From Candidatus Woesearchaeota archaeon (GTDB lineage: Archaea; Nanobdellota; Nanobdellia; Woesearchaeales; JACPBV01), in the NCBI GenBank assembly GCA_016180135.1, contig JACPBV010000004.1:26868-90867 (forward strand): a stretch of DNA of 64,000 nucleotides, written 5' to 3'. The translations under genes and the position numbers were made by a program. This document shows, one piece after another, positions 7,846-63,214 of this stretch (its first letter is position 1; each line of letters opens with the position of its first letter). The notes below the pieces were generated by a model, which worked only from the letters and a program-made list of their open reading frames with translations, was not told the origin of the DNA and did not search any database.

Positions 7846-7905
7846 CTATGAATCACTTTTCCGCAGGAGCGGCTCTGCCGCCTAAGGTCAAAACTCAATT
7901 GACAT
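7846..7905. mobile_element. solo 5-prime-arm fragment of the family-B hairpin element
   Basis: tatgaat...ccgcaggagcggctctgccgcctaaggtcaaaactcaattgac matches the B 5-prime arm (ccggcaagagcggctctgccatcctaaggtcaaaactcaact). No matching 3-prime arm follows. Confidence 0.5.
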
Positions 7906-10020: not shown

Positions 10021-10758
10021 ATGAAAGCGATACTCTTATCGGCAGGAAAGGGAACAAGGATGTTGCCTTTGACGAAAAATACCCCCAAATGCCTTTTGCA
10101 TGTCGGCAATGGGTTGACGGTGCTGGAAACTCAGCTGGAGACTCTGAAAAAAGCCTCAATAAAAGATATTTGTATTGTTACTGGCTATTTATCTGATCAG
10201 GTTGAGGCAAAAGTCAGGCCTTATGAAAAGGACCTGAATATCAGGATAATCTATAACCCGTTCTATGATATCTCCAACAACCTGGTCTCCCTGTGGACAG
10301 CCAGCAGCCAGATGGACGGCGATTTTATGATCATCAACGGCGATGACCTCTTTCAGAAGTCAGTCATTGAAAAGCTTCTTGCTGTAAAGAGCAGTAGGTG
10401 CATGGTCATCGACCAGGAGCCTCCCTATCGGGAGGGAGATATGAAAGTCGAGATAGCCGGCGGCAGGATTGTCCGTGTCAGCAAGCAGATTCCCTCAGAA
10501 AAAGCAGCAGGAGAATCTATCGGCATGATGAAATTCACCAACGGCTCAAACAAACTCATCCAGGCAGTGCTGGACAAGATGGTCAGGAAAAAAGAAAATC
10601 TCCAGTCATTTTACCTGGAAGCCGTCAACGAGCTGATCAAGGAAGGCCATACTTTAGATTTTATCGCTATCCCGGCAAAAGACTGGGCAGAGATTGATTT
10701 CCATCCGGATTATGAGTTAGTGATGAAGAATATCGATGGGTTCCATAGGGGGATGTGA
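10021..10758 (+). CDS. sugar/alcohol-phosphate nucleotidyltransferase (LicC / IPCT-like NTP-transferase family)
   Basis: MKAILLSAGKGTRMLPLTKNTPKCLL is the G-rich NTP-transferase signature. The C-terminal WAEIDFHPDY resembles cytidylyltransferases of the LicC/IPCT type. Confidence 0.8.
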   Translation: MKAILLSAGKGTRMLPLTKNTPKCLLHVGNGLTVLETQLETLKKASIKDICIVTGYLSDQVEAKVRPYEKDLNIRIIYNPFYDISNNLVSLWTASSQMDGDFMIINGDDLFQKSVIEKLLAVKSSRCMVIDQEPPYREGDMKVEIAGGRIVRVSKQIPSEKAAGESIGMMKFTNGSNKLIQAVLDKMVRKKENLQSFYLEAVNELIKEGHTLDFIAIPAKDWAEIDFHPDYELVMKNIDGFHRGM

Positions 10759-10794
10759 AAACTTTTTTCTAATAAAACCTTACTCTCCAAATAT

Positions 10795-10828
10795 TATTTC
10801 CACGCCTTTATCATCCAGCTCCCGCCCC
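10795..10828. repeat. 34-bp perfect direct repeat, copy 1 (flanks the PIN/AbrB cassette)
   Basis: tatttccacgcctttatcatccagctcccgcccc is identical to 11553-11586. Confidence 0.9.
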
Positions 10829-11242
10829 TTTATCGTGCTCAATTCTTGAAAGAAATTCCGCAGGCGTCAGGATAGAAACTCCCTGGTATTGTTTTAGTTT
10901 GAGAAGGTGCCTGTCTCCAGTCACAATGAACTCTGCCTTTGCGGCAATTGCGCAGGACAGCACCTTGTCATCCTTAGGGTCTTCTTGGACAGCAATAACT
11001 TGGATGGTAGGTTCGATTATTGTTGAAATTGTTTTGAAAAGGCTTATCTGACGTTGGATAAACTCTTCAGGCACATCAAAGTCCCTTTTTTGGCTTTCTT
11101 CCATCTCCAAAAGCATCTCTGGTGAGGTAAAGCTGCTGATCTGCTGCTGGAGCGCAAGCCGGACAATGGCGTGGGGTTTTCCTAGCTCCCAAAAAATTGA
11201 AGAGATCAGGATATTGGTATCCAGCACAACCCTTTCAGGCAT
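10811..11242 (-). CDS. PIN-domain toxin (VapC-like)
   Basis: VVLDTNILISS (N-terminal acidic Asp) ... FIVTGDRHLLKL... matches the PIN_3-type pattern. It lies immediately downstream of an AbrB-type antitoxin. Confidence 0.8.
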   Translation of the reverse strand: MPERVVLDTNILISSIFWELGKPHAIVRLALQQQISSFTSPEMLLEMEESQKRDFDVPEEFIQRQISLFKTISTIIEPTIQVIAVQEDPKDDKVLSCAIAAKAEFIVTGDRHLLKLKQYQGVSILTPAEFLSRIEHDKGAGAG

Positions 11243-11243
11243 C

Positions 11244-11504
11244 CTAAGCCCCTCTGCCCCGATGGATTTTTTTGACTACTGCTTCTTCATCTTTGATTCC
11301 CTTTTGCTGTGCAAATTTTTGCCCCCAGCGGGTAAGCTCTTGAAATTCCTTCTCAAGTTCAGTCATATTCATCTTTTTTATCACCACTGCATCACGTATT
11401 GTGCTGATGGCAACAGCAGTTCCTGGCATCAGGTCTAGCTCATTGCGGATTTCTAGGGGTATTACTACCTGCCCTTTAGTTGAAATCTTTGAAATTTCAG
11501 TCAT
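11244..11504 (-). CDS. AbrB/MazE/SpoVT-family antitoxin
   Basis: ISTKGQVVIPLEIRNELDLMPGTAVAIS is the swapped-hairpin AbrB motif. The start is moved to Met29 (11504) to avoid running into the upstream methyltransferase gene. Confidence 0.75.
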   Translation of the reverse strand: MTEISKISTKGQVVIPLEIRNELDLMPGTAVAISTIRDAVVIKKMNMTELEKEFQELTRWGQKFAQQKGIKDEEAVVKKIHRGRGA

Positions 11505-11551
11505 GGTAGTCCTCAAGTTGGAAAGTAATACTTTCTTACTTAAAAAACTTC

Positions 11552-12337
11552 CTATTTCCACGCCTTTATCATCCAGCTCCCGCCCCATATTTTCTCAAGC
11601 TGCCGCACAAGCCATTTATTGGGAAATTTGTCCCCGAGGGAATTGATCAGTGGCCTCCGCCAGACTTTAACTCTGCTGAACTGGGTGAACAGCCTTTTGA
11701 TTCCGGCTTTGGTATACACCCTTACCAAGGGCACATTCCCTTCAACTTCATAATGCTTATGGACGATTTCGCTCCAGCTGAGCCTGAAAAATTCCCCGCG
11801 CAATATCCCGTGCCACAGCGGAAAAAATAAGTAATACATCCACCCCCGTGCATAAAGCATGATGACTGCGCTCTTCCCCGGCTTTAAAGCGCGGTGAACT
11901 TCATTGATCGCTTTTCGTGTGTCCGGCGTATGGTGCAGAACTCCAAAGCTGTAGGCAAAATCAAAGGTATTGTCAGGAAACTCAAGATGCTCTGCATCCA
12001 TCCTTTTGAAATGCCCCCTCAACCCGTAGAGCTTGAATCTTTTTGCAGTAGTCTCGATGGCATTCTGGGTCAGATCGACCCCGTAAACTGCCGCGCCATG
12101 CTTCGCAAACATCAGGCTGTCGGTCCCGATGCCGCAGCCGACCTCCAGGATCTTCTCCCCGGCATGCCTGTTGAATTCTGCATCGCTGAGCAGGAAAGGA
12201 TATTGGGTGGTGAACCTCACCCGCTCCACCTCGTCATAGTATTCTTTGGTGCCGGCTTCCTTTTGAGAATACCACCGCTGGGGCAGTTTCCCTTCCCAGT
12301 ATCCCCTGATATTTTCCTTGTCTTTTACCGGCTTCAT
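11552..12337 (-). CDS. class I SAM-dependent methyltransferase
   Basis: ILEVGCGIGTDSLMFAKHGAAVYGVDL (motif I) and FDFAYSFGVLHHTPD are present. Confidence 0.8.
   Translation of the reverse strand: MKPVKDKENIRGYWEGKLPQRWYSQKEAGTKEYYDEVERVRFTTQYPFLLSDAEFNRHAGEKILEVGCGIGTDSLMFAKHGAAVYGVDLTQNAIETTAKRFKLYGLRGHFKRMDAEHLEFPDNTFDFAYSFGVLHHTPDTRKAINEVHRALKPGKSAVIMLYARGWMYYLFFPLWHGILRGEFFRLSWSEIVHKHYEVEGNVPLVRVYTKAGIKRLFTQFSRVKVWRRPLINSLGDKFPNKWLVRQLEKIWGGSWMIKAWK
11553..11586. repeat. 34-bp perfect direct repeat, copy 2 (covers the last codons and stop of the methyltransferase gene)
   Basis: Identical to 10795-10828. On the minus strand it encodes ...GGSWMIKAWK-stop. Confidence 0.9.
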
Positions 12338-15657: not shown

Positions 15658-15690
15658 GATTTAGGGGCGGTTTAAAAGCTTTATCCTCTG

Positions 15691-15864
15691 GTATGTATTA
15701 AGCTCCGGCAAGAGCGGCTCTGCCATCCTAAGGTCAAAACTCAACTATCAAACTAAATCGCGCTCGTCGTGGGGGGATGCCCCCTCGGGGACACAGAGCC
15801 CTTGCCAAATCAATTGGGAGTTTTGAAGAGGGCAGAGCCGCTCCAAGGGGAGCTTAATACATAC
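15691..15864. mobile_element. family-B long-hairpin MITE-like element, copy B1 (174 nt)
   Basis: The 16-bp terminal inverted repeat is gtatgtattaagctcc / ggagcttaatacatac. Inner perfect stems are gagcggctctgcc/ggcagagccgctc (13 bp) and tcaaaactc/gagttttga (9 bp). The GC-rich core is ggggggatgccccctcggggacacagagcc. The flanking 8-mers match only imperfectly (atcctctg vs cttctgca). Confidence 0.7.
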
Positions 15865-20948: not shown

Positions 20949-21003
20949 AAGGAAAACCTGAGATGGGAAAAACTGAGAGTGTATTTAAAGATTTGTGTGT
21001 TTG

Positions 21004-21177
21004 GTATGAATTAAGCTCCGGCAAGAGCAGCTCTGCCATCCTAAAGTCAAAACTCCATCCAAAAAGACAGCCAGCCCGTTGCGGGGGGTTGTCCCTTACG
21101 GGGACGCAGGGCCATCGCCAGACTTATCGGGAGTTTTGAAGATGGCAGAGCCGCTCCGAGGGGAGCTTAATTTATAC
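21004..21177. mobile_element. family-B long-hairpin MITE-like element, copy B2 (174 nt)
   Basis: The inverted repeat is gtatgaattaagctcc / ggagcttaatttatac. The same 13-bp and 9-bp inner stems are present. The core is gcggggggttgtcccttacggggacgcagggcc. The flanking 8-mers tgtgtttg / ggtgtttg match 7 of 8. Confidence 0.75.
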
Positions 21178-24525: not shown

Positions 24526-24714
24526 GTTTGCTGACTCTCCTTTTGATAATCTATACTTACGGAAAAAAATAATTATACAATTGTTGTCCGTTCGTAATAA
24601 GCCAACGACAACTTTTTGTCTAAATATTTGCGTCGTTGGCTATATTATATGCTCAGGAATTATTCCGCAAAGTCTGAACCCTCTTTCAAATTCATCAAAT
24701 AAATTAGCGCTATA

Positions 24715-24829
24715 GAAAATTTCAACAACCTCGGCGAGGCGAGGCTGGGGGTCGCCCCATCGGGGTAGCCGAGCAGGGCAAATTTCCAGAGGAAATTTGA
24801 CCGTCGAGCCATGTGTTGTTGAAATTTTC
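24715..24829 (+). repeat. family-A structured repeat, copy A1 (115 nt)
   Basis: A 15-bp closing stem gaaaatttcaacaac / gttgttgaaattttc encloses ctcggc...gtcgag, a GC hairpin (ggctg-ggggtcgccccatcgggg-tagcc) and the hairpin caaatttcc-aga-ggaaatttg. Confidence 0.75.
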
Positions 24830-24858
24830 GCGCATTGCACCTCATAAGAGGTGTCTTT

Positions 24859-26823: not shown

Positions 26824-26853
26824 TGTTGAGTCAGCATCTCCCTGCGGGCGGTT

Positions 26854-27003
26854 AAATGCAAATATTCCACCAGTCTTTGACTGGTGGTTGACGCTCGATT
26901 AGACGTTGGGAATATTTGCCTTCTCAGAAATCCGACCCGAGCGACCGAAGGGAGCGAGCAATCCCCCCCGTCTGTGACGGGGGGTGGTCGGATTTCTTTT
27001 GAA
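26854..27003 (+). repeat. family-D two-domain structured repeat, copy D1 (~150 nt)
   Basis: Domain 1 is gcaaatattcc/ggaatatttgc enclosing ccaccagtc-ttt-gactggtgg. Domain 2 is agaaatccgacc/ggtcggatttct enclosing cgagcgaccgaagggagcgagc and ccccccgtc-tgt-gacgggggg. Confidence 0.7.
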
Positions 27004-27628: not shown

Positions 27629-27688
27629 GCTGCTGAAATTTCAGCAATGTTTAAAAAGGTTCCTCTATTCGAAGAATAAGGAAAAATC

Positions 27689-27987
27689 GTATGTATTAAG
27701 CTCCGGCAAGAGCGGCTCTGCCATCCTAATGTCAAAAACTGTTGTTTTTGAGCATGCTCAGAAATCGTAACTATTATAATAAGATATGACGATTTCTGAC
27801 AGGTCAAAACTCAACTGTCTAACTGAATCACGCTCGTAGTGGGGGGATGCCCCCTCGGGGACACAGAGCCCCTGCCAAATCAGTCAAGAGTTTTGAAAAC
27901 CCTAAGAAGCGAAGTTTCGTGGGTGCCAATAATGCGCAAGCATTATTAAGCATGGCAGAGGCGCTCCAAGGGGAGCTTAATACATAC
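27689..27987. mobile_element. family-B element, copy B3 (299 nt), carrying two nested insertions
   Basis: Same 16-bp inverted repeat and core as B1. Perfect 8-bp flanking duplication gaaaaatc (27681-27688 and 27988-27995). Relative to B1 there are extra segments of about 70 nt in the 5-prime arm and about 55 nt in the 3-prime arm. Confidence 0.8.
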
Positions 27988-29078: not shown

Positions 29079-29230
29079 GAAAATTTCAACAACATCGGCG
29101 AGGCGAGGGAGGGCCGCCCTCCGTCCGCAGACCGGAACGCTGGATTATCCCTCCGTCCGCAGACCGGAACGCTGGATTATCCCTCCGTCCGCAGACCGGA
29201 ACGCTTTTTTTTCCCTCCGTCCGTTTTCTC
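29079..29230 (+). repeat. family-A element, copy A3: 5-prime half only, followed by tandem expansion
   Basis: It starts gaaaatttcaacaacatcggcgaggcgaggg as other A copies do, then runs into 32-nt tandem units. No gttgttgaaattttc 3-prime arm is present. Confidence 0.6.
29117..29223 (+). repeat. perfect 32-nt tandem repeat (ccctccgtccgcagaccggaacgctggattat), 2 full units plus 24-nt and 11-nt partial units
   Basis: Units read directly at 29117-29148, 29149-29180 and 29181-29204, then T8, then ccctccgtccg. Confidence 0.9.
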
Positions 29231-38562: not shown

Positions 38563-38631
38563 GATACCCAAACAAGATACCTCAACAAGATACCCAAACA
38601 AGATACCTCAACAAGATACCCAAACAAGATA
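38563..38631 (+). repeat. 13-nt tandem array (gatacccaaacaa / gatacctcaacaa alternating, 5 units plus a partial) starting right after the ArsR stop codon
   Basis: Units read directly. The effective period is 26 nt, about 2.6 copies. Confidence 0.85.
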
Positions 38632-38722
38632 GATGAGTATGATGCACGAGTAATGCGGGAGGTAAGATAAGGTGTATCGGGGTTGCAGGACTGGAAAATA
38701 CAACTATTTTGGAGGAAAAAAC

Positions 38723-39154
38723 ATGATAAAACTTATAAAAGAAAAATTGGTTGGATGGGCTGGCAGCATTTCAAGCGCTGCAAGCATCATGGGCTCGTGG
38801 CAGATATGCCATAGCATCTGCTTAGGCCTGATCTCGCTGCTGAGCATCATCGGCATTACGGTAGCGGGGATGCCTCTGCTCTTCCTTACTGAAATCGCTG
38901 TTCCGATGTGGACGGTTGCGTTGGCAATTTTCATCATAACCCTGTGGCTCTACCTCACAAAAAAATGTATCTCTCCTAAGCTTTTGCTGCTTAATGCCGG
39001 GCTCATCATCGCAGGCACTCCTTTCCAGCAGCTCCGGCAATTCCAGATTTATTTCTGGGCAGTTGGTGGCCTGATTGCCGCCGGAGCAGTCGGCTGGTAT
39101 CTCAAAGACAGGCTTGCCGGGAAAATCCCGCACCAAAAAGGGGGGAAGAGATGA
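38723..39154 (+). CDS. small membrane protein with intramembrane CxxxC motif (putative metal-handling accessory protein)
   Basis: [15 protein letters not shown]...[16 protein letters not shown], with 4 TM segments. ggagg lies 8 nt upstream of the ATG at 38723. Its stop overlaps the copA ATG (ATGA). Confidence 0.5.
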
Positions 39155-41745
39155 AACACTCAAAAAATCGGAGCATGATAAATCCTGCCAAGAGCATGTC
39201 AAGGTCCGGATCAGGTGAGCTGGCAGCGGCAGATAAATCCTCCAGAAAAATAACACTGTCAATCAGCGGGATGCACTGCGCTTCCTGCGCCGCAAATATT
39301 GAAAAAGCGCTCGGCAGGACGGAGGGGGTAAAGACTGGCACGGTGAACTTTGCGTCCGAAAAAGCCACGATTGTTTTTGACCCGGAAAAAACTGATGAGC
39401 CTAAGCTGAAAGCTGCTATCATCAAAACGGGCTACAAGGTTGTTGAGCAGGGAAATGCTCAGGAACCTAAGCAGGGTGGGCAGGGGATGGGGCAGGAAAA
39501 GGGGAATGCCGGTAGCAAAGGCGGATTCAGCGAGCTCCGGCTTAAGGTTGTTGGGATGGATAACCCTCATTGCGTCTCAACGGTTGGCGATGCCCTGAAT
39601 CTTGTCAAGGGCATCATCTCAAAAGAGCTGTCTGCCAGCCAGAATGCTGTCATCACATTTGACTCATCAAAGGCATCTCCGGATGAGATAAAAAAAGCGA
39701 TAGCCAAAGCAGGCTATGAGCCCGTCGAGCTGTCTCCTCAGCTTGCGGACAGGGAAAAGGAAGCAAGGGCAAAGGAGATCGGAAGGCTCAAGAAAGAGAT
39801 TATCTTTGGGTTTATCTTAAGCATCCCAATTTTTATCCTCTCTTTTCCGCAGTGGTTTAAAATAATGCTCCCCTATAATCACTACATTCTTTTTATCCTG
39901 ACAACGCCTGTCCAGCTGATTCTAGGAAGGCGTTTCTATACCGGCGCTTACATCGCATTGATGAATAAATCTGCTAATATGGATTCCCTTATCGCAATCG
40001 GGACTTCGGCTGCCTATGTCTACAGCTCGTTAGGGACTTTTTTCCCTTCAACATTTGGCGATGCGATGTATTATGACACTGCGGCAGTGATTATCACATT
40101 CATCCTTCTTGGCAAATACCTTGAGGCAGTCACCAAGGGAAAAGCATCGGAGGCGATCAGGAAGCTCATCGGGCTGCAGGCAAAGACTGCCGTCATCATA
40201 CGGGGCGGGAAAGAAGTGGAAATCCCCGTCGATCAGCTTCAGGTGGGAGACATTTTCCTTGTAAAGCCCGGAGAGAAGATTGCGACGGATGGGATTGTCG
40301 CTTCAGGCGCTTCTTTTGTTGACGAGTCTATGGTCACTGGCGAGAGCATTCCCGTAAAGAAAGGGATGGATGATGCTGTTATCGGATCAACCATCAACAA
40401 GCACGGGCTCCTGAAAGTCAGGGCAGCAAAAGTCGGCAATGAGACGATGCTTTCCCAGATCATCAGGCTGGTTGAGGATGCGCAGGGCTCGAAAGCCCCT
40501 ATCCAGAGGCTGGCTGACAAAGTTTCAGGGATTTTTGTGCCCGCAGTAATAGCGATAGCTGTCATCTCATTTTTGTTCTGGAACTTCATGGCGCCGCAAT
40601 GGCTTTCGTTATCCCCCACACCATTCTTGTTTTCATTGGTCATCTTCATCTCGGTCCTTATCATTGCATGCCCCTGCGCTCTCGGGCTTGCGACGCCGAC
40701 AGCCATCATGGTCGGCACAGGAAAAGGCGCTGAGCATGGCATCCTCATCAAGAATGCCGAAGCATTGGAGACTGCCCATAAGATTACAACTGTTGTTTTT
40801 GATAAGACCGGCACACTGACAAAAGGCGAGCCGTCGGTAACTGATATTATCCCATTGGGCTCAAGTCTCAACCGGCAGGAGCTTCTTTTTTATGCTGCCG
40901 TCGCAGAAAAAGGCTCTGAGCACCCGTTGGCTGAAGCGATAATGAAAAAAGCGAAATCTGAGAAACTGATTGTTCCTGATGCATCCTCCTTTTCAGCAGT
41001 CCCGGGAAAAGGCGTTATAGCAAAGCACAAAACCCATTCCCTGCTCGCAGGCAGCCCGAAATTCCTCTTGCAGAAGAAAATTTCTTTTCCTCAGGGGGCT
41101 GAAGAGCAGATTGCGAAGCTCGAAGGCGAAGGAAAGACCACCATTGCTCTTGCCGTCGATGAAAAGCCAGCCTGCCTCATTGCGGTTGCCGATACCCTGA
41201 AGGAGAGCTCGCAGGAGGCATTACGCTCCCTGAACAGCCTGGGCATTGAAACCATTATGATCACGGGAGACAACGAAAGAACTGCAAAAGCAATCGCTTC
41301 CAAGGTTGGAATCAGCAAGGTTCTCGCAGAAGTCCTCCCTCAGGACAAGGAAAAAGAGATCAAAAAGCTCCAGTCCCAGAACAATGTAGTTGCGATGGTC
41401 GGCGACGGCATCAATGATGCTCCGGCCCTTGCCCAGGCAGACGTCGGCATAGCGATAGGCGCCGGGACAGACGTTGCCATAGAGACTGGCCAGATAGTGT
41501 TGATAAAAAGCGACTTGCGTGATGTGGTCACTGCAATTAAGCTGAGCTCCTACACCATAAAAAAGATCAAGCAGAATCTCTTCTGGGCGTTTGGCTACAA
41601 CACCTTAGGGATACCGATCGCAGCCGGCATCCTGTATCCGTTTACTGGCTTCCTCCTAAATCCGATCATCGCAGGCGCTGCGATGGCATTCAGCTCCGTC
41701 TCTGTCGTCGGAAACAGCCTGCTGATGAGAAGGTGGAAAGGGTGA
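39151..41745 (+). CDS. copA: copper-translocating P1B-type ATPase
   Basis: An HMA domain ([15 protein letters not shown]) and a second, degenerate HMA domain are present. The CPC motif ([10 protein letters not shown]), DKTGTLT and [10 protein letters not shown] are all present. Confidence 0.95.
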
Positions 41746-45790: not shown

Positions 45791-45812
45791 AGGGGAGGTA
45801 TTTTTCCCAAAA

Positions 45813-45933
45813 GAAAATTTCAACAACATCGGCGAGGCGAGGGCGGGGGTTTGTCCCTTACGGGGTGCCCGAGCAGGGCAAAATTTCCACAGAGGAAATT
45901 TTGACCGTCGAGCCCTTTGTTGTTGAAATTTTC
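45813..45933 (+). repeat. family-A structured repeat, copy A4 (121 nt)
   Basis: Same closing stem as A1. The inner hairpins are gggcg-ggggtttgtcccttacgggg-tgccc and caaaatttcc-acaga-ggaaattttg. Confidence 0.75.
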
Positions 45934-46032
45934 GCACATTGCAACCTAAAACTGCAGTTATGGGGAAGTGCGTTGATTGGGGGACACAATAGGGATTTAC
46001 ATCAATCCCCTTTACAACACCATTCGAGTATT

Positions 46033-46180
46033 AAATGCAAATATTCCACCAGTCTCTGACTGGTGGTTGACTCTCGATTAGCCATTGGGAATATTTGCCT
46101 TCTCAGAAATCCGACCCGAGCGACCGAAGGGAGCGAGTAATCCCCCCGTCTGTGACGGGAGGTGGTCGGATTTCTTTTGA
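46033..46180 (+). repeat. family-D two-domain structured repeat, copy D2
   Basis: More than 90 percent identical by eye to D1 (26854-27003), with the same four stems. Confidence 0.7.
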
Positions 46181-46254
46181 ATAATTGCGGCAAATGTAGC
46201 ATAACTACTGCAATTATCTATATTTTTCTGATGTAGAAGTTTTATCCAATATCT

Positions 46255-47211: not shown

Positions 47212-47502
47212 TTGGCTTCAAAAGAAGGCATGGAGACGGATGTAGACAGAGTTCTTGCTAGTGTCAGGAAGAAGCGTTTGCTGATGGAAGTCGAGGTCAA
47301 GGGCCTCATCGAGAAGAAGGAAGAGGAAATTTCCATCCCCTTAAGCATTTTCTCGGAGAGATTAGGCATGCTTGAGTCTATCGTTCATTATCTCAGGGAT
47401 TCTCATGGGCTTTCTTTTACAGAGATTGCAGGGCATCTAAAGCGGGACTACAAGACAGTCTGGGCGACATATCAGCAGGCAAAGAAAAAGTATAAGCGAT
47501 GA
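47212..47502 (+). CDS. small helix-turn-helix protein (sigma-70 region-4 / LuxR-like HTH), translationally coupled to the giant ORF
   Basis: LGMLESIVHYLRDSHGLSFTEIAGHLKRDYKTVWATYQQAKKK looks like an HTH. The stop overlaps the giant-ORF ATG (ATGA at 47499-47502). The start may be TTG 47212 or ATG 47230. A TATA-like ctttataaac lies at 47181-47190. Confidence 0.55.
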   Translation: MASKEGMETDVDRVLASVRKKRLLMEVEVKGLIEKKEEEISIPLSIFSERLGMLESIVHYLRDSHGLSFTEIAGHLKRDYKTVWATYQQAKKKYKR

Positions 47503-50500
47503 AACAATCCAGCAAAGTTAAGGAAATCAGCGCAGGCATAAGGGAGCTCAGGCTCTCAGGGAAAAATGCCGATAATGCCAGAAAGAGCTATGCAAGGCTG
47601 CTGGAAGCCTTGCTTCAGGAAAAAGAAAAACTGCAGTCTCATCTCAGCAAAGGGATTCTATCAGAGCAGAACTATGATCAGATTCTCCAGGAAAATCTTG
47701 ACGGCAAAACCAGGATGCAATGGATTGCCTATTGTGAAAATATCCTTGGCAGCGCAGATTCCAAAAAACAGCAGTATCGCCGATGGGTCGGAGTTCTTGA
47801 GGACGACATTGGCCGGATTAAACGATCTTTCAGGAAGGGAAGCATCTCCCAGGAAGCATACCATCATCTCCTGAACCAGAAGATTGAGGGAAAAACCAGG
47901 GAAGGATGGATTGTATCCGCAAAAATGGCGTTGTATGGTCTGGAAGAGGGTGAATCCCTGGCGGGCGCTCAGGGAATTTTAAGCCGCAGCGCATCGTCAG
48001 TAATCAGAGCATCAAAATCGCTGCTAGAAGAGAAAAAGGAACTCCTCGTTAACACCGCCCCTATAATATTGATGCTCTTGCTTCTCAGCCTCTCAGCTTT
48101 TTTTATCAGCCCGGCGCACACCGGATTTGCAGTCATAAGCATAGAGAATGGATTTGAGGATTCCTTAAACCTCTCCCTCAACGGGTCATCCTCATTCCTC
48201 TGGGCCCCGGCCAGCCACGGAATGATAACGAACATTGCAGTCAGCGGAAGGCTTTCAAAAGGTGCCGGAGCAAAAATCTACCTCGAAAAGGCCGGCAGGC
48301 TTTATCTGCTCCTTGATACTGAAGCTGGCTTGAAGACAGAAACAGTTTTGCAGGAAATTCCCGGCATTGCTGCTGGAATCAGTTCCCTCCCGCAGCAAAA
48401 GATCCCCCTCACCGGAGAGATTGAAAACCTATCTGTTGCCCTTATCGGCTCAGGGCCAGTTCAATCAGCAAATGATATATTTAAATTCGGCTTGAAGCAA
48501 AGGGCAGGATTAGACAACAGCTCTTCAGTCCCTGATGAGAACTTCTGCGCACTATGGAAAGTGAACAATGTTTCGGCAGAGTGCTATGGAAATGCTGACT
48601 GCTGCAGTTTTGCGGGCCTCGAAGCCAGTGGCTCCTGGAATGATACGTTCTACCTGTATTCCGGAAGATTCAGCGCAAAGAAAGACAATCTCATTGAGCC
48701 AATCCTTATCTCTTACGATGTCAATCTGAGCATCCCGAAGTCCGATATTAGGATTTCCTCCGCAGTTGCGGAAGCCCATTTTGCGGATGAGCTGGAGAGA
48801 TTCAGCCTTGCATGCATGGAAACGTGCAGCGGCCTGGAGTTTAACGAATCGCGATACTCTCTTGTTGTCTCTTTGGCAATTGGCTCGCTCATCCTTGACA
48901 GCATCTCTTACAAAATGGCCGAAAGCTATAACGTATCAGAAAATTCCCCTCTGCTCCAAAAGAACATCTCTAATGTGTCGCTCTACCAAAACGAAAACAT
49001 CACGTTAAGCCTTAATGATTTCTTTGCCGATGCAGACTCCGATGCGCTGGTATACTATGCTTATCCTGCAGAAAATATCAGCTTTTCTTTTTACCAGGGG
49101 AACATCACCGTCATCCCTGATAAGGATTTCCTCGGCAAAGCATCAACATTTTTTACTGCCTCAGACGGCTTTTTTAATGCCACTTCAGGAATAATTGATA
49201 TTGAGGTTGCTGAAAAGCCGCTCCTCCCGGCTCAGGTATCGGTCACCCAAACTCCCATAAAACCCAAGGTAAGGGTCAATGAGCCGGTGAAATGGGTTAC
49301 AAGAGTTAATTCCACCAGGAAAGTCATAAACCTCACGATGAGCCTGGCGCACGGGGCTGAGAACATCTCCGTCAGAGAATTGACTCAGGGCAGCATTGAT
49401 ACCTCAAGAGTCATTGATACATCCAAAGTGATTGATACATCCAAAGTGATTGATACCTCAAGAGTCATTGATACTGCTGGATTCATGAATCTTAAATCAG
49501 TATTTGTCAGCGAGCAGGGCCAGACTAAAAACCTCTCGCTCTATAATGCCGAAAAGTATTTGGCCAGGCTTGAATCCAGGGAGGAGATGCTTATTGAAAC
49601 CAAAAGGGGAAAGATTAAAAATGACCCGACGGAAATTGAAGCTCTGAAATCTCTTAACACCCAATTGCGTGATGTTGAAAACGAGAAAAACCGGATTACA
49701 GGATTTGTTGTTGCCCAAAGAGGGCAGAAAGGCATTATAACCCGATTTTTTGAATGGCTCATCCAATCAGACCTCGTCGGATTTGCCATCCTCAACGCCC
49801 CATTAGCTCCAATCACCACTCCCTCCACTAATCTCATCCCCACCCCCACAACTAATCACGCCACTAACTCCTTCCCCACTCCCTCCACTAATCTCATCCC
49901 CACCCCCACAACTAATCTTGAAGAGCCTGGCGAAAATGCCCATCCCCCAGTATTGACGATTGCCGAGGGGATTAAAGAAGCCGAGATTACTTATTTCACG
50001 GAAGCTCCGGTTGCCGAGGAATTCAATCTGTCAGAGTCAGGCAAGCGCATTATCATCAGCTCAGACATCCACTATGAAAACATTACGGCTTTCACTTACC
50101 TCCCCGGCGAATATGCCTCTTCAGGCATCCATCTGTATTGGATGAAAAACGGCTCAAGGGAAGAGGTAAATTTCACAGCATTTGATGAAAACAATAACGG
50201 CAGGATTGATTATATCGAATGGATCATCCCCTCGTTGTCAAACCAGACATATGATCTCTCCCTCACCATCATCACACTGAAGAGTTATCCTATCATTGGA
50301 AGAAACTGGACGACAGAGTTTAATGTTTCCGGCACAGCAAACCTCACGATCACTGCAGTCAACAGCACAAGTTTTGGCCAGGTCTACGTTGACAATTTCT
50401 CCTCGGAAGACGACCTCTATCTCAGGGAACTGAAATGCGGTAATCTCACCGTATGGAACAACGGCACAAATTATTCATCAGGCAATGTTTTCTTCGTCCT

Positions 50501-53500
50501 CAGCAATGGCACCGAGGCAGCCTGGAGCGAAACATTCGGAAACAGCCTTCCAGTAACTTCCTTAAAAGTTGTTGACTTCAGCTGCAGCAGTTCAGCGTAT
50601 CACATTGTCAAGGTTGAAACCCACGGGGACCATGTCCAGGAATTCACTTTTGGAAATATCACAAAATATGCTTACAATCATGCAGGGGGGACAGCATGCG
50701 GTTCAGACGGCCTCGGCTCAACCTGCCAGGGAGGGGGAAATGCCAGCCTTGACACGTGCATTGATACTGACAGCTCTAACACGCTTGATGGGTCGGATTT
50801 CTGCCATGGCGCTAACCAATGCCTTGATTCCCATATCGGCGCTTCCTGCAACTATGCCACCGGCCCGACATCAGGGCTCTGCGCCTACAACGGTGCAACC
50901 TCTGCAACCTGCTCAAACCTCGTAATCTCCGGGGAGTATGGCACAGGCATAACTGGCGGTTCTTCAGTAAACTTCCACAGCGGCAATGAAAATTCATCAT
51001 GCTCCCCTGCATCAGAGATGATGGTCTGCAATATCTCTACGGGATACAACCCTCAGGGCGGTGATCTCTGCCTCGACTCATCATGCACGGATCCTGCAAG
51101 CGGGATTGTTTCCCTTAACTGCATCGATCAATCCTGCTCAACGTCGGATGTCAGTGATGCGGCAGTATTCGGCGACTGTAATGCCACGGGCGGAGGCTGG
51201 GCCTGTGACAGCAGCCTTGGCTCATCAGGGTTTGCCCAGGACGGGATTTGCTCAGTGACCTCTGGATTTAACACCTATGGGTGCGCAGCTTCCGGATATA
51301 TCTGCAATGCTACCTCGGGCCCTTTTGCCGGAACTATCTTCAAAAATGGCTGCGGTGTTGGCATGGAGTGTTCAGACAACGATCCCTGCGACTCCTCATT
51401 GACAGACGGCAATTTCAATAAGGCAGCAGGCACATGCTCGGGCACAGACTGTGTCGGTGTCGCAGTTGCCAGCATCTATGCATTCAACCACTCTAAAACC
51501 TCGCCGACAAGCCTCTACCTCGTGAACGGCTCAGTGAACTCCTCCGTCATCAACGGAACAAATATAACCCATAATCAGACCTTAAACTTTACCCACCCGA
51601 CGTTTGGCCTTCGGCTCCAGATTATCGCAAACTTCTCAAGCTGGGATGTTGACATTTCCAACCTTACCATTGACGCAAACAACTTCAGCACTGCCGTGAA
51701 TTGGACATTTGTTGACCAGAGAGCTGTCCCCAAGAATCACACGCTCTACGTCCCCAACACCCTCCAGCTTGGCGTGTATGCATGCGGAACAGCAAACAGC
51801 ACAGGGGAAGTTTTCCCAAAATGCCCGAACAGGACGGTCTGGACGGACTCGGAATTGGGGGCAGGCTCGGTCGTCGTAAGGAATGGGCTCGTAGCGTATG
51901 AGCTTTCTAATCGTTACGTTGTCTCCAACCTTTCGGGCTCCGGAATAGGTCAGGGTGTTGCAGAATGCGGAGCGCTAAACCGTGAGAACGTCACCTATAA
52001 CCTCCTTCAGTCAGTCACTGATACTGACACCTGTTTCACAATCTCCGCCAATAATGTTACGCTTGACTGCAACAATTTTTCCATCACTTATGCAACTGCA
52101 GCTAACGGTAATGGCATCACCGTCAGCAATGTAAACAGGACAACGATCAGGAACTGCACCTTCATCAAGACCTCCGGTCAGGGCTCCTCATATGCCGTTC
52201 AGTTGTCTGGAGCAAACAATGCATCCATCAGCAACAGCTCATTCACTGCTGCTTCTTTAATTTCTTACCCGATTTACCTGACTTCATCCTCAAGGACAAA
52301 CCTGATTCAGAACAACAACATCACCGCTTCAGGAGGGAGCCCCGGAATCTATATTGATTCTTCCTCGGGACAGAACATCATCCTTAACAACAACATTACG
52401 ACTGTCGCAGCCTCGGCGCCTGCTGTTTACATCACTGGCTCTTCCAACAACACCCTTGACGGGAACAATATCACCACCGCCGGAAAAGCATCGTTCGGCA
52501 TACAGCTTGATGCCTCATCTTTTAACACAACTATAATCTTTAACAACATTACGACCGAAGGGAACTCATCTCACGCAGTCTATATCCTTGCAGCCTCAAA
52601 CTTTACCAAAGTATTGAAAAATGTAATCATCACAAAAGGATGGACATCATCCGGTATCATGATTTCTGATGCGTCATACAATATGGCCGAGAACAACTCC
52701 CTGGATATCCTCAACAGCACTAACGCAGCCTTTTACATCAACCAAAGCTCGCTTGCAAACAGCTTTTCAAAAAACAATGTGACTTTCTCAAGAGGGGACG
52801 CAATCCATATCATCTATGACCCGAAGCCGACCTCAGATGGGGGGCCTGTCCCGAGGTTCAATAATTTCTCGAACAACACGTTCTCCAATATATCCGGCTT
52901 TGACCTGATGCTCACCCCTATGATAAGTGCTCCCGGAGTTTCCCAGATAAACCTTACCACCCTGATTGACCAGCCCATAAAGAGATACAACTTCACCAAT
53001 TATGGCGGCTTGTTTGCCATAAGGTCATCCGAATTTGGGGAAATCGCTTTTTTCACCGTCATCAACGGCTCAGGAACAAATTTCAGCAATGATATTATCA
53101 TCAAAAATAATTCTATCACAGTTAATGCTTCAGCAGGGAATGGAATATTCAACAGCTCAGCAAACCTTACATTCTTTAACCTAGGGGACAGGGGCTTTGC
53201 CAATCCCGCCATTCTTTACAACGGTGGAACGTGTGATTTAACCACCTCCCCGCTCTGCCTGAACTTTACCGGCCTTACTGCTGCGACGGTCATCTTGAAT
53301 GTTACTCATTTCAGCAATTACAGCATCGGGGGTCAGGTTGATTTAAGCACACCTACTGTCTCTGTCATCTCGCCAACGCACAGGAACTACACGCTAAGGC
53401 AGATCGACTTCAACATTTCCCTGAATGAGGCAGGGAGCGCATGCAAAATGGCATTGGACAGCGAGGGAAATATCACGATGAGCGCTGTAAACAGCTCTTA

Positions 53501-62554: not shown

Positions 62555-62603
62555 AATGCAACCATTCCATCCGGTCTTTGACGGGGGGGTCGGATTATTT
62601 TGA
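62555..62603 (+). repeat. internally deleted family-D derivative (D4), abutting A5
   Basis: aatgcaaccattccatccggtctttgacgggggggtcggattattttga joins the D 5-prime end (aatgcaaatattccaccagtctttgac) directly to the D 3-prime end (gacggggggtggtcggatttcttttga). Confidence 0.5.
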
Positions 62604-62608
62604 AAAAA

Positions 62609-62844
62609 GAAAATTTCAACAACATTGGCGAGGCGAGGGTGGGGCCGCCCTCCGTTGCGAAGCAACCGGAACGCAGGATTATTCCTCCGTCCGCAGACCG
62701 GAACGCTTTTCCCCCCCATCGGGGTGCCCGAGCAGGGCAAAATTTTCGCGGAGAAACCTCCGAGCGGTAGCGAGCGAGGCACAAAAAACCCTAAAGGGTT
62801 TTTTCGTGAATTTGACCGTCGAGCCCTTCGTTGTTGAAATTTTC
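62609..62844 (+). repeat. family-A structured repeat, copy A5 (236 nt, expanded)
   Basis: It has the canonical closing stem. Two copies of the ccctcc-hairpin-ggaacgc submodule are inserted in the GC hairpin, and the AT hairpin is enlarged. Confidence 0.7.
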
Positions 62845-62935
62845 TGCGCAATGCAGCTTATAAAGAACCCACAAAACCTGTTTTATTTAACCGTCTTTTT
62901 CAGAAAGCTTTAAAACAATTCTTTGACTTATGCCT

Positions 62936-63214
62936 GGCGGGAAGGCTAGGCCGGGATGCTAGTGCCACCCTGTCACCTGAAACGCACTTCAGCAGGGGCC
63001 GAAGCTTTGCAAGCGGCATTTTGCTTTGCTGGTGGTCTTTGCCCGTACGTCGAAGCTCTGTCCTTTGGGATTGCCTGTTCAGTGAACCTGGTCAGGCCCG
63101 GAAGGGAGCAGCCATAAGCTGGATGGATGATGCTCAAGGGGTAGCGGAGTGGAGGAAAGGCAGAGGCAGCCATCATCAGGGTAGATTGTCCATTGCGGGG
63201 CATGCTTTCCCGCT
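62936..63214 (+). ncRNA. ffs: signal recognition particle RNA (archaeal-type 7S / SRP RNA)
   Basis: The helix-8 motif ggtcaggcccggaagggagcagccataag lies at 63089-63118. The terminal helix gcgggaagg (62937-62945) pairs with ctttcccgc (63205-63213), including one G-U. A length of about 280 nt fits the archaeal long form. The ends are approximate. Confidence 0.8.

What the first reader, a model, noticed from the sequence alone, without database searches (positions are those of the whole stretch)
10795..11586. PIN/AbrB toxin-antitoxin cassette flanked by 34-bp perfect direct repeats that duplicate a gene's 3-prime end
- tatttccacgcctttatcatccagctcccgcccc occurs at 10795-10828 and 11553-11586.
- The right copy is the natural end of the methyltransferase gene (…GGSWMIKAWK-stop).
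- The left copy is read in a different frame and supplies the last codons and stop of the PIN toxin (…KGAGAG-stop).
- The ~720-bp AbrB-PIN module therefore looks like a cassette inserted at, or recombined via, this 34-bp site inside the long minus-strand glycosylation operon.
- The duplication is much longer than a typical transposase target-site duplication, so site-specific or homologous recombination seems more likely.
Basis: seen in the sequence. Interest (0 to 1): 0.7.

Follow-up and report, generated by a model that had tools for sequence, protein, structure and literature searches.

The report
Toxin-antitoxin insert with 34-bp duplication
A 724-bp toxin-antitoxin gene pair was recently inserted right at the stop codon of a sugar-pathway methyltransferase gene in a DPANN archaeon, duplicating that gene's last 34 bases; this way of inserting was already described for bacterial restriction-modification genes, but I found no report of it for toxin-antitoxin pairs or for archaea.

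Summary
A perfect 34-bp direct repeat (10795-10828, 11553-11586) brackets a 724-bp AbrB/MazE-fold antitoxin + PIN_3 toxin module. Four independent metagenome assemblies are 100% identical to the window over the stretches they cover; three of them read through a repeat copy. The right copy is the true 3' end of the methyltransferase. The left copy is an orphan that supplies the last five codons and stop of the PIN gene. Five related lineages (71-77% aa identity) lack the module. One of them (L010) keeps the same gene order, with the methyltransferase stop 2 nt from the convergent NTP-transferase gene, so this is a recent insertion. The insert has no recombinase, no terminal inverted repeats and no attC-like site. 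The 34-mer is not used as an attachment site anywhere else searched. The closest known phenomenon is "insertion with long target duplication" of restriction-modification modules (Nobusato 2000; Furuta 2010). In 69 related PIN_3 loci, direct bracketing repeats are enriched (10 direct vs 1 inverted). Five curated cases duplicate the end of a neighbouring gene. In one, the two copies differ mostly at synonymous sites, which favours homology-anchored integration. The mechanism in the window itself is inferred. Interest is moderate.

The parts
11553..11586 (-). Right (gene-proximal) copy of the 34-bp direct repeat. It is the last 10 codons plus the TA of the stop of the methyltransferase; the first base of the insert (G, 11552) completes the stop as TAG.
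10795..10828 (-). Left (orphan) copy of the 34-bp repeat. It is followed by A (10794), which recreates the ancestral TAA stop and then the ancestral spacer. In another frame it encodes the last five PIN codons (GAGAG) and the TGA stop (10811-10813).
10829..11552 (-). The 724-bp insert: a 48-nt leader, the antitoxin gene and the toxin gene without a stop codon of its own. It has no terminal inverted repeats and no third ORF.
11505..11552 (-). 48-nt leader of the insert. It carries a TATA-like box TTTTTTAAGTAAG (about 11535-11547) and GAGGA (about 11510-11514) ahead of the ATG. A similar TTTATAAGTAAT lies in the 46-nt leader of the Pacearchaeota homologue L017. Promoter function is inferred.
   Evidence: direct reading of the sequence
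11244..11504 (-). Antitoxin, 86 aa, AbrB/MazE (SpoVT) fold. The start MTEISKISTKGQVVIP matches homologues in L016 and L017.
10811..11242 (-). PIN_3 toxin, 143 aa. The columns invariant across the aligned homologues (D8, E46, D91, D110) are intact. The C-terminal tail HDKGAGAG extends past the usual end of homologues. It starts 1 nt after the antitoxin stop.
11552..12337 (-). Target gene: a class I SAM-dependent methyltransferase, the last gene of the minus-strand run CDP-OH-P transferase / radical-SAM-SPASM / GT1 / methyltransferase. It is left intact by the duplication.
10759..10794 (.). Ancestral spacer between the original methyltransferase stop and the stop of the convergent NTP-transferase gene (10021-10758, +). 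The corresponding spacer in the empty-site relative L010 is 2 nt.

Best explanation
A self-contained 724-bp type II toxin-antitoxin module (own TATA-like leader, AbrB-fold antitoxin, PIN_3 toxin) was inserted recently into a Woesearchaeota chromosome. It landed exactly at the stop codon of the last gene of a surface-glycan operon, and the last 34 bp of that gene were duplicated.

The gene-proximal copy keeps the methyltransferase intact. The distal orphan copy keeps the ancestral TAA and spacer, and by accident now provides the end of the PIN ORF. The module encodes no mobility function.

The event belongs to the descriptive class 'insertion with long target duplication'. The most likely mechanism is integration by the host's own recombination on a short homologous anchor. 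One route is a single (Campbell-type) crossover of a small circular DNA carrying the TA pair plus the end of the methyltransferase gene. The other is homology-facilitated illegitimate recombination of a linear fragment. Once in, the module would be retained because losing it kills or arrests the cell (post-segregational killing). The two 34-bp copies would in principle allow precise excision.

Shown: the repeat, the gene identities, the empty sites in relatives, the absence of mobility genes in the insert and among the ORFs scanned, and the excess of such repeats in this TA family. Inferred: the recombination route, the promoter, toxicity and addiction, and excision.
For: Repeat and anatomy.

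Independent assemblies: L001-L003, 100% identical; L015 ends at the left repeat.

Empty sites: L010 has GT1 (67%), methyltransferase (77%), TAA, 2 nt, then the convergent NTP-transferase (91% over 22 aa), with no TA module. L004/L005, L011, L006-L009 and L013 also lack it.

Recency: the two copies are 34/34 identical, whereas the L010 orthologous stretch already differs at 2 positions.

No mobility machinery: only two ORFs in the insert; no inverted repeats at its ends; no integrase, transposase or Cas among the ORFs scanned at 1-47 kb; no tRNA gene in the window.

Attachment site not shared: a wobble-degenerate 30-nt pattern covering most of the 34-mer found nothing in GTDB genomes, and in JGI metagenomes only orthologous methyltransferase ends plus one chance hit.

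Class behaviour: in 69 PIN_3 loci, direct bracketing repeats of at least 40 bits occur in 10, against 1 for inverted repeats (p=0.004) and 3 of 65 shifted controls. After curation 7 remain (p=0.03). All DR-bounded inserts are 0.7-1.6 kb; those whose ORFs I inspected hold only the TA pair, apart from one dockerin-domain ORF in L094.

Homology-anchor evidence: in L080 the 472-bp aconitase-end duplication differs at codon positions 5/4/29, with 25 synonymous vs 9 non-synonymous codon changes and no stops (P=7e-8). One copy was therefore imported as a functional gene end together with the TA module.

Precedent: PMC2853133 describes RM modules inserted with duplications over 30 bp and of variable length, with no mobility genes and repeats spanning start or stop codons so that the target gene stays intact.
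Against: The mechanism is not observed in the window. With 34/34 identity the codon-position test cannot be applied here, so the homology-anchor route rests on analogy with L080 (and weakly L047). L017 shows no synonymous bias.

A 34-bp anchor is short for homologous recombination, and nothing is known about recombination in DPANN archaea.

The model needs a donor that already had the TA module directly behind the same gene. No such donor was found; the closest PIN is 54% identical.

The family statistic is modest (7 vs 1 after curation) and comes from only 69 loci.

The empty sites are in other species-level lineages (at most 77% aa identity), not in the same population.
Confidence: 0.55

Rival explanations
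1. Site-specific integration. The 34 bp are attL/attR of a small integrative element that targets the 3' end of the methyltransferase gene and rebuilds it. The element is either moved in trans by an integrase encoded elsewhere, or it is the remnant of a larger integrase-bearing element. In the remnant case, one deletion running from the end of the PIN gene into attR would have removed everything except the addictive TA pair.
For: The duplication ends at the stop codon of the target gene, and the insert supplies a new stop (TAG vs ancestral TAA). The same is described for integrase-bearing elements in 3' ends of archaeal protein genes (PMC6563490). Two other PIN_3 islets are bracketed by a tRNA 3' half or a tRNA-like sequence (L094 tRNA-Arg, L089). 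The PIN gene has lost its own stop codon, as one deletion into attR would produce.
Against: There is no integrase in the insert, among the ORFs scanned at 1-47 kb of the window, or among the ORFs scanned beside the tRNA-bracketed islet L094. The 34-mer has no dyad symmetry. No other element or site with this sequence exists in GTDB genomes or JGI metagenomes. No close relative of the cassette is on viral contigs or plasmids. Duplications of 220-472 bp in related loci are longer than usual att cores.
Confidence: 0.22
2. A true long target-site duplication. Two nicks 34 bp apart on opposite strands, or a break with long overhangs, were filled in, and a stray foreign DNA fragment was ligated between them by end joining. 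The fragment persisted because it happened to carry a complete addictive TA pair.
For: The two copies are exact and unique. The insert is a bare minimal fragment that stops short of the PIN stop codon, as expected for a random fragment end. L017 shows no synonymous bias between its copies, which is compatible with in-situ duplication followed by decay. Furuta et al. suggest that double-strand breakage is involved in the RM cases.
Against: In L080 the copies clearly diverged under purifying selection, which an in-situ duplication followed by pseudogene decay does not predict. Duplications of hundreds of bp are hard to explain by staggered cuts. Placement exactly at the stop codon is not predicted, except through selection.
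Confidence: 0.15
3. The arrangement is old and immobile. The TA pair and both repeat copies were ancestral, and the relatives lost the module by recombination between the repeats.
For: Recombination between the repeats would regenerate exactly the empty site seen in relatives.
Against: Five separate relative lineages all lack the module. The non-coding part of the orphan copy is still 100% identical to the gene copy. The closest PIN homologues are only 54% identical and lie in unrelated contexts. Even this scenario needs an original insertion with duplication.
Confidence: 0.04
4. Assembly or binning artefact that created a false duplication.
For: Short-read assemblers break or mis-join at repeats longer than k. 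One Logan contig ends about 66 nt past the NTP-transferase stop, which by my coordinate arithmetic is inside the left repeat (L015).
Against: Three independent assemblies from different runs read through one or the other repeat copy with 100% identity to the window.
Confidence: 0.01

Closest known systems
Insertion with long target duplication of restriction-modification modules (Nobusato et al. 2000, Gene 259:99, known to me through citations; Furuta, Abe & Kobayashi 2010, PMC2853133)
   Same: A small addictive gene module with no mobility genes. It is flanked by unique direct repeats over 30 bp that align to a single copy at an empty site in a relative. The repeats span the stop (or start) codon of the neighbouring gene, so that gene stays intact. 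Repeat length varies (46-423 bp there; 32-472 bp in the gene-end PIN_3 cases here, and 34 bp in the window).
   Different: The cargo is a type II TA pair (an RNase-type PIN toxin), not a DNA-cutting RM system. DNA breakage by the cargo, which those authors proposed as the driver, therefore cannot explain it. The host is a DPANN archaeon, whereas no archaeal case passed their screen. The 2014 review by the same group (PMC3874152) attributes this mode to RM systems only.
Integrase-mediated integration into the 3' ends of tRNA or protein-coding genes (for example the thaumarchaeal integrated elements, PMC6563490; from my own knowledge, e14 and phage 21 in E. coli icd)
   Same: Direct repeats made of the target gene's 3' end. 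The target gene is rebuilt with a new stop codon supplied by the insert.
   Different: No integrase is present. The insert is 724 bp, against a smallest reported element of 2.6 kb that includes an integrase. No second use of the 34-mer was found.
Campbell-type insertion-duplication and homology-facilitated illegitimate recombination (from my own knowledge: de Vries & Wackernagel 2002; Prudhomme et al. 2002)
   Same: Foreign DNA enters through one short homologous anchor. A single crossover of a circle duplicates the anchor on both sides of the insert. In L080 the codon pattern of the two copies fits an imported anchor.
   Different: These are known from naturally transformable bacteria and laboratory constructs. 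They have not been shown in archaea of this group, and the 34-bp anchor is at the low end of workable homology.
Toxin-antitoxin cassettes in integrons (from my own knowledge)
   Same: Small TA pairs with their own promoter that behave as discrete cassettes.
   Different: No attC-like imperfect palindrome, no integron integrase or attI among the ORFs scanned, and no cassette array. The repeat is host coding sequence.
VapBC-type (AbrB/SpoVT antitoxin + PIN toxin) type II TA systems
   Same: The domain pair, gene order, near-abutting genes and conserved PIN acidic residues.
   Different: Nothing unusual in the proteins except the host-derived six-residue tail on the toxin.

Membership tests
Type II TA, AbrB/MazE-fold antitoxin + PIN toxin (VapBC-like) | PIN-domain toxin with the conserved acidic residues | tested here: met
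   PIN_3 5.8e-20, 72.7 bits. D8, E46, D91 and D110 are invariant in the 17-sequence alignment.
Type II TA, AbrB/MazE-fold antitoxin + PIN toxin (VapBC-like) | Small upstream DNA-binding antitoxin, with the two genes adjacent or overlapping | tested here: met
   PF04014 at 26 bits, above the 24.7 cut-off. 1-nt spacing between the genes. The same pair is found in L016 and L017.
Type II TA, AbrB/MazE-fold antitoxin + PIN toxin (VapBC-like) | Toxin arrests growth and the antitoxin neutralises it | not testable with these tools
   Needs expression experiments.
Insertion with long target duplication (Furuta 2010 criteria) | Direct target duplication longer than 30 bp, unique in the genome | tested here: met
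   34 bp, 2 copies only in the 64 kb.
Insertion with long target duplication (Furuta 2010 criteria) | Insert under 20 kb that holds the module and no mobility genes | tested here: met
   724 bp, two ORFs.
Insertion with long target duplication (Furuta 2010 criteria) | Empty site in a related genome where both repeats align to one copy | tested here: met
   L010 and four other lineages. These are other species-level lineages, not strains of the same species.
Insertion with long target duplication (Furuta 2010 criteria) | Cargo is a restriction-modification system | tested here: not met
   The cargo is a TA pair. The window is therefore filed as a variant of the class.
Site-specific integrative element | Integrase encoded in the element or demonstrably acting on the site | tested here: not met
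   None in the insert or among the ORFs scanned at 1-47 kb. Action in trans from elsewhere in the genome cannot be excluded.
Site-specific integrative element | Same attachment sequence reused by related elements or at other sites | tested here: not met
   0 hits in GTDB genomes; only orthologous gene ends in JGI metagenomes.
Site-specific integrative element | Direct repeats made of the target gene's 3' end, with the target gene rebuilt | tested here: met
Integron gene cassette | attC-type imperfect palindrome at the cassette end, with an integron integrase and attI nearby | tested here: not met
   No inverted repeat in or beside the 34-mer. No integrase among the ORFs scanned.
IS / transposon / MITE | Terminal inverted repeats and a short (2-14 bp) target duplication | tested here: not met
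   No terminal inverted repeats at 10829-10860 / 11520-11552. The duplication is 34 bp.
Casposon / Cas1-type integration | Cas1 integrase, terminal inverted repeats, 14-15 bp or CRISPR-repeat-length duplication | tested here: not met
   No Cas genes among the ORFs scanned. No terminal inverted repeats.

The most novel reading that the evidence does not exclude
Small PIN-type TA modules are themselves minimal mobile cassettes in both Archaea and Bacteria. They would spread without any recombinase of their own, riding on a short piece of a conserved host gene end that serves as a homologous anchor. The resulting direct repeats then allow excision as a small circle (758 bp here) that can re-enter the same gene in a related genome. 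This would be a general, recombinase-free life cycle shared by addiction modules (RM and TA). It would explain how chromosomal TA pairs turn up at 'regular' positions, with no mobile element around them.
Probability: 0.2. Interest if true: 0.7.

Novelty: new variant of a known kind. Interest (0 to 1): 0.45.

Why it matters
How chromosomal toxin-antitoxin pairs move when no phage, plasmid or transposon surrounds them is poorly explained. Reviews say only that they 'establish independently or as part of genomic islands' (PMC7167474).

This locus is a clean, recent example with a matching empty site. It shows a TA pair entering a compact archaeal genome at a stop codon, with a long duplication that spares the neighbouring gene. 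The same picture was described for restriction-modification modules in bacteria.

Because the cargo here does not cut DNA, the process cannot depend on cargo-made DNA breaks. It more likely reflects host recombination plus selection for addictive cargo. The small family survey (about 10% of PIN_3 loci bracketed by direct repeats; imported gene ends in L080) turns this into a testable general hypothesis. It also flags the 3' end of a surface-glycan operon in a DPANN archaeon as an entry point for foreign DNA.

Tried and rejected
- **Other uses of the 34-mer.** A wobble-degenerate 30-nt pattern gave 0 hits in GTDB genomes. In JGI metagenomes it gave only orthologous methyltransferase ends (L012, L013) and one chance match (L014). 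There is no evidence of a shared attachment site.
- **An empty-site allele in the same population.** Exact-protein look-ups of the methyltransferase, PIN and NTP-transferase returned only occupied or repeat-truncated contigs. This is uninformative, because k=31 assemblies branch at a 34-bp repeat.
- **A donor.** The best PIN homologue is 54% identical. IMG/VR contigs reach at most 33% and PLSDB plasmids at most 41%.
- **Integron, IS/MITE and casposon readings.** All rejected: no attC-like palindrome, no terminal inverted repeats, and no integrase, transposase or Cas1 among the ORFs scanned.
- **tRNA target.** Rejected: the window has no tRNA gene.
- **Comparative cases discarded after inspection.** L038 and L071 carry dispersed multi-copy repeats. 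L043 has paralogous small zinc-finger ORFs on both sides. L037 has a GC-rich palindromic repeat.
- **'PIN stop lies inside the repeat' as a shared mechanistic signature.** I considered this for the window, L080 and L039 and dropped it. In L080 the junction is better read as a native convergent overlap of two stop codons (CTAG). In the window and L039 the PIN end runs into duplicated host sequence, which I read as an illegitimate joint.
- **Technical dead ends.** Pandey & Gerdes 2005 is not held in the library.
Full report
**1. The observation**

The 34-mer TATTTCCACGCCTTTATCATCCAGCTCCCGCCCC occurs at 10795-10828 and 11553-11586 and nowhere else in the window, even with three mismatches. None of 100 shuffles gave two matches. 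The bases on either side of the two copies differ, so the repeat is exactly 34 bp.

All the genes involved are on the minus strand:
- ORF 11552-12337 is a class I SAM methyltransferase (Methyltransf_25/11, about 1e-23). It ends ...GGSWMIKAWK-TAG, and its last 10 codons plus the TA of the stop form the right copy.
- ORF 11244-11504 is an AbrB/MazE-fold antitoxin (PF04014, 26 bits, above the cut-off).
- ORF 10811-11242 is a PIN_3 toxin (5.8e-20). Its last five codons (GAGAG) and its TGA stop lie in the left copy, read in a different frame.

Four Logan assemblies from four sequencing runs were recovered. Three (L001-L003) match the window at 100% over their full lengths. L001 and L002 read through the right copy and L003 through the left. 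The fourth, L015, ends about 66 nt past the NTP-transferase stop, which I infer is inside the left copy. The structure is real.

**2. Source and setting**

The proteins are recorded from a Candidatus Woesearchaeota MAG, on a contig of 117,852 bp. An archaeal SRP RNA lies at 62939-63211.

Positions 1-34 kb form one large surface-glycan cluster: GT1, GT2, GT4 and GT9 glycosyltransferases, epimerases and dehydratases, a flippase, several methyltransferases, a radical-SAM/SPASM enzyme and CDP-alcohol phosphatidyltransferases.

The TA pair follows the last gene of the minus-strand run CDP-OH-P transferase / radical SAM / GT1 / methyltransferase. It faces the convergent asparagine synthase and NTP-transferase genes. 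So it sits at the end of the operon, not inside it.

No integrase, transposase or Cas gene was found among the ORFs scanned at 1-47 kb. The window has no tRNA gene.

**3. Direction of the event**

The methyltransferase has relatives at 71-77% identity, and I fetched their contigs.
- **L010**, whose run accession is adjacent to those of two window-matching runs, has GT1 (67%), methyltransferase (77%) ending ...GGSWMIKAWK-TAA, then 2 nt, then the stop of a convergent NTP-transferase (91% over the 22 visible residues). There is no TA pair.
- **L004/L005, L011, L006-L009 and L013** also have no TA pair after the gene.

In the window, the left copy is followed by A. This recreates TAA, followed by a 35-nt spacer to the NTP-transferase stop. 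That is the ancestral junction. The right copy is followed by the first base of the insert, G, giving TAG.

The 724 bp between the copies (10829-11552) are therefore an insertion, and the 34 bp a duplication of the target. The copies are identical over 34 bp, although most of the orphan copy is non-coding and the orthologous stretch in L010 already differs at two positions. This points to a recent event.

**4. What was inserted**

The insert has three parts:
- a 48-nt leader with a TATA-like TTTTTTAAGTAAG and a GAGGA before the ATG;
- the antitoxin gene;
- one base later, the toxin gene, which has no stop codon of its own.

The Pacearchaeota homologue L017 has a 46-nt leader with TTTATAAGTAAT. 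Homologous antitoxins start at the same MTEI/MAEI position. This rules out the longer ORF that would start inside the repeat.

PIN homologues mostly end a few residues after the FLxxI motif, and the window's tail HDKGAGAG runs past that point. The residues that are invariant across the aligned homologues (D8, E46, D91, D110) are intact.

There are no inverted repeats at the ends of the insert, and no hairpin in or next to the 34-mer. The closest PIN in 5.8 billion proteins is 54% identical. Viral contigs reach 33% and plasmids 41%. The donor is not sampled.

**5. Is the 34-mer an attachment site?**

I scanned with a 30-nt pattern made degenerate at codon wobble positions, which covers most of the exact 34-mer. 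It found nothing in 185,579 GTDB species genomes. In JGI metagenomes it found only orthologous methyltransferase ends and one chance match. There is no sign that any other element or cassette uses this sequence.

**6. Is this a one-off?**

I fetched 80 loci with PIN_3 relatives from named genomes. I then looked for repeats with one copy upstream of the antitoxin and the other at or after the PIN stop.
- Direct repeats of at least 40 bits occur in 10 of 69 testable loci.
- Controls gave 3 of 65 for the same geometry shifted by 1.6 kb, and 1 of 69 for inverted repeats with identical geometry (p=0.004).

Inspection removed two loci with dispersed multi-copy repeats (L038, L071) and one ambiguous locus (L043). 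That leaves 7 of 69 (p=0.03 against 1 of 69).

Five of the seven duplicate the end of a neighbouring gene:

| Locus | Organism | Duplicated sequence | Length, identity |
|---|---|---|---|
| L080 | Limnocylindria | Aconitase 3' end; PIN and aconitase stops overlap in CTAG | 472 bp, 92% |
| L047 | Halovenus | C-terminal ~125 aa of a 222-aa protein | at least 220 bp, 75% |
| L017 | Pacearchaeota (AbrB-PIN pair homologous to the window's) | 3' end of a LamG-domain gene, up to its stop | 73 bp, 82% |
| L026 | Aenigmatarchaeota | 5' end of a small ORF | 48 bp, 90% |
| L039 | Woesearchaeota | Stop codon and 3' flank of a convergent gene; spacing 753 bp; PIN end again encoded by the repeat | 32 bp, 91% |

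The other two are bracketed by a tRNA-Arg 3' half (L094) or a tRNA-like sequence (L089).

All DR-bounded inserts are 721-1,587 bp, too small to also hold a recombinase. The ones whose ORFs I inspected contain only the TA pair; L094 also has a dockerin-domain ORF.

**7. Mechanism**

Three routes can give 'gene - insert - orphan gene end':
- (a) a staggered break that is filled in, with a foreign fragment captured;
- (b) site-specific recombination, with the integrase acting in trans or since lost;
- (c) integration through a homologous anchor carried on the incoming DNA, either as a single crossover of a small circle or as homology-facilitated illegitimate recombination.

A codon-position test separates (a) from (b) and (c) in the older examples. 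After an in-situ duplication the orphan decays neutrally. If one copy was imported, both copies diverged while they were functional genes.

| Locus | Differences at codon positions 1/2/3 | Result |
|---|---|---|
| L080 | 5/4/29 (25 synonymous vs 9 non-synonymous codon changes; no stop or frameshift in 156 codons) | P=7e-8: one copy imported with the TA pair |
| L047 | 19/19/34 | P=0.01: intermediate |
| L017 | 5/3/5 | Uninformative |

In the window the copies are identical, so the test cannot be applied. I therefore rank (c) first by analogy. It also needs no missing enzyme and explains the variable repeat length (32-472 bp). Route (b) comes second. It explains the stop-codon placement and the lost PIN stop through a single deletion into attR, and archaeal elements do integrate into gene 3' ends (PMC6563490). 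However, no integrase or second use of the site was found. Route (a) comes third.

One further point, noted only as speculation: the upstream edge of the repeat is the GC-rich run GGGGCGGG. From my own knowledge, illegitimate joints often fall in patches of that kind.

Retention by post-segregational killing is inferred from what is generally known of such modules.

**8. Comparison with what is known**

Furuta, Abe and Kobayashi (PMC2853133), following Nobusato et al. 2000, defined 'insertion with long target duplication' for restriction-modification modules. Its features are:
- repeats over 30 bp and of variable length (46-423 bp);
- no other mobility genes;
- an empty site in a related genome;

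They found it only in bacteria (no archaeal case survived their screen) and suggested that DNA breakage by the RM enzymes is involved. The later review from the same group attributes this mode to RM systems only (PMC3874152). TA reviews give no insertion mechanism. One mycoplasma paper mentions flanking direct repeats as 'scars of previous recombination events'.

The window meets every structural criterion of the class except the nature of the cargo. It is best described as a variant of that class: a TA pair in an archaeon.

**9. Verdict**

The reading as an insertion is correct. The proposed recombination mechanism is plausible but unproven. The phenomenon has a published precedent for another kind of addictive module.

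It is a clean, recent and well-documented example, and the family survey suggests the mode is not rare. It is not a new kind of element. Interest is moderate (0.45).

Noticed in passing
window 15689-15864, 21002-21177, 27687-27987 (partial 18-mer at 7881-7898): A MITE-like or structured intergenic element of about 176 nt with perfect 16-bp inverted termini (GTATGTATTAAGCTCC ... GGAGCTTAATACATAC). It folds into one long nested hairpin (-84.8 kcal/mol, z=-7.6). Three copies lie in spacers of the glycan cluster, and the third carries two internal insertions of about 72 and 53 nt. It has no Rfam match.
   Followed up: partly
window 24704-24839, 45802-45943, 62598-62854; 26852-27003 and 46031-46181; 29099-29208 and 62665-62710: Further dispersed intergenic repeat families (83-96% identity between the better copies). 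They include 32-bp tandem units at 29.1 kb. One copy lies just upstream of the SRP RNA gene.
   Followed up: no
window 62939-63211 (+): Archaeal signal recognition particle RNA, 155.6 bits, full length. It independently confirms that the window is archaeal.
   Followed up: yes
window 47499-62465 (+): A single 4,988-aa ORF with internal repeats at the DNA level (for example 54789/57312 and 51378/54246). It was not scanned for domains; my guess is a giant surface protein.
   Followed up: no
window 38563-38640: A tandem repeat with a 13-bp period (GATACCCAAACAA / GATACCTCAACAA, about 6 units). The period is not a multiple of three. It lies just upstream of a small ORF (38672-39154) and the heavy-metal P-type ATPase gene (39151-41745). 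It could be an operator or iteron-like array.
   Followed up: no
L006 6288-7209 and L007 8985-9906: In the 72%-identity relatives, an IS630-like pair of ORFs (HTH_23 to HTH_33 plus a faint DDE_3 hit) sits directly downstream of the orthologous methyltransferase. The 3' end of this operon may therefore be a recurrent landing place for foreign DNA.
   Followed up: partly
L080 2167-3870 (Candidatus Limnocylindria MAG): A 760-bp RHH-PIN module sits between an intact aconitase gene and a 472-bp orphan copy of its 3' end. The PIN and aconitase stop codons overlap in CTAG. The two copies differ almost only at synonymous sites, which implies that a foreign aconitase gene end was imported together with the TA pair.
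   Followed up: yes
L071 1952, 2351, 3462, 4443: A 23-mer (CTCTCTCTCTCTGCCTTTTGCAA) recurs four times in a locus that holds two PIN-type TA pairs in a Gammaproteobacteria MAG. It might mark a cassette array.
   Followed up: no
L094 2416-2463 and 4051-4098; L089 2566-2633 and 3716-3783: TA-containing islets of 1.1-1.6 kb are bracketed by a duplicated tRNA-Arg 3' half (L094) or a tRNA-like 3' end plus hairpin (L089). No integrase was found among the ORFs scanned in and beside the L094 islet; L089's flanks were not scanned. They may be decayed or non-autonomous integrative elements reduced to their addictive module.
   Followed up: partly
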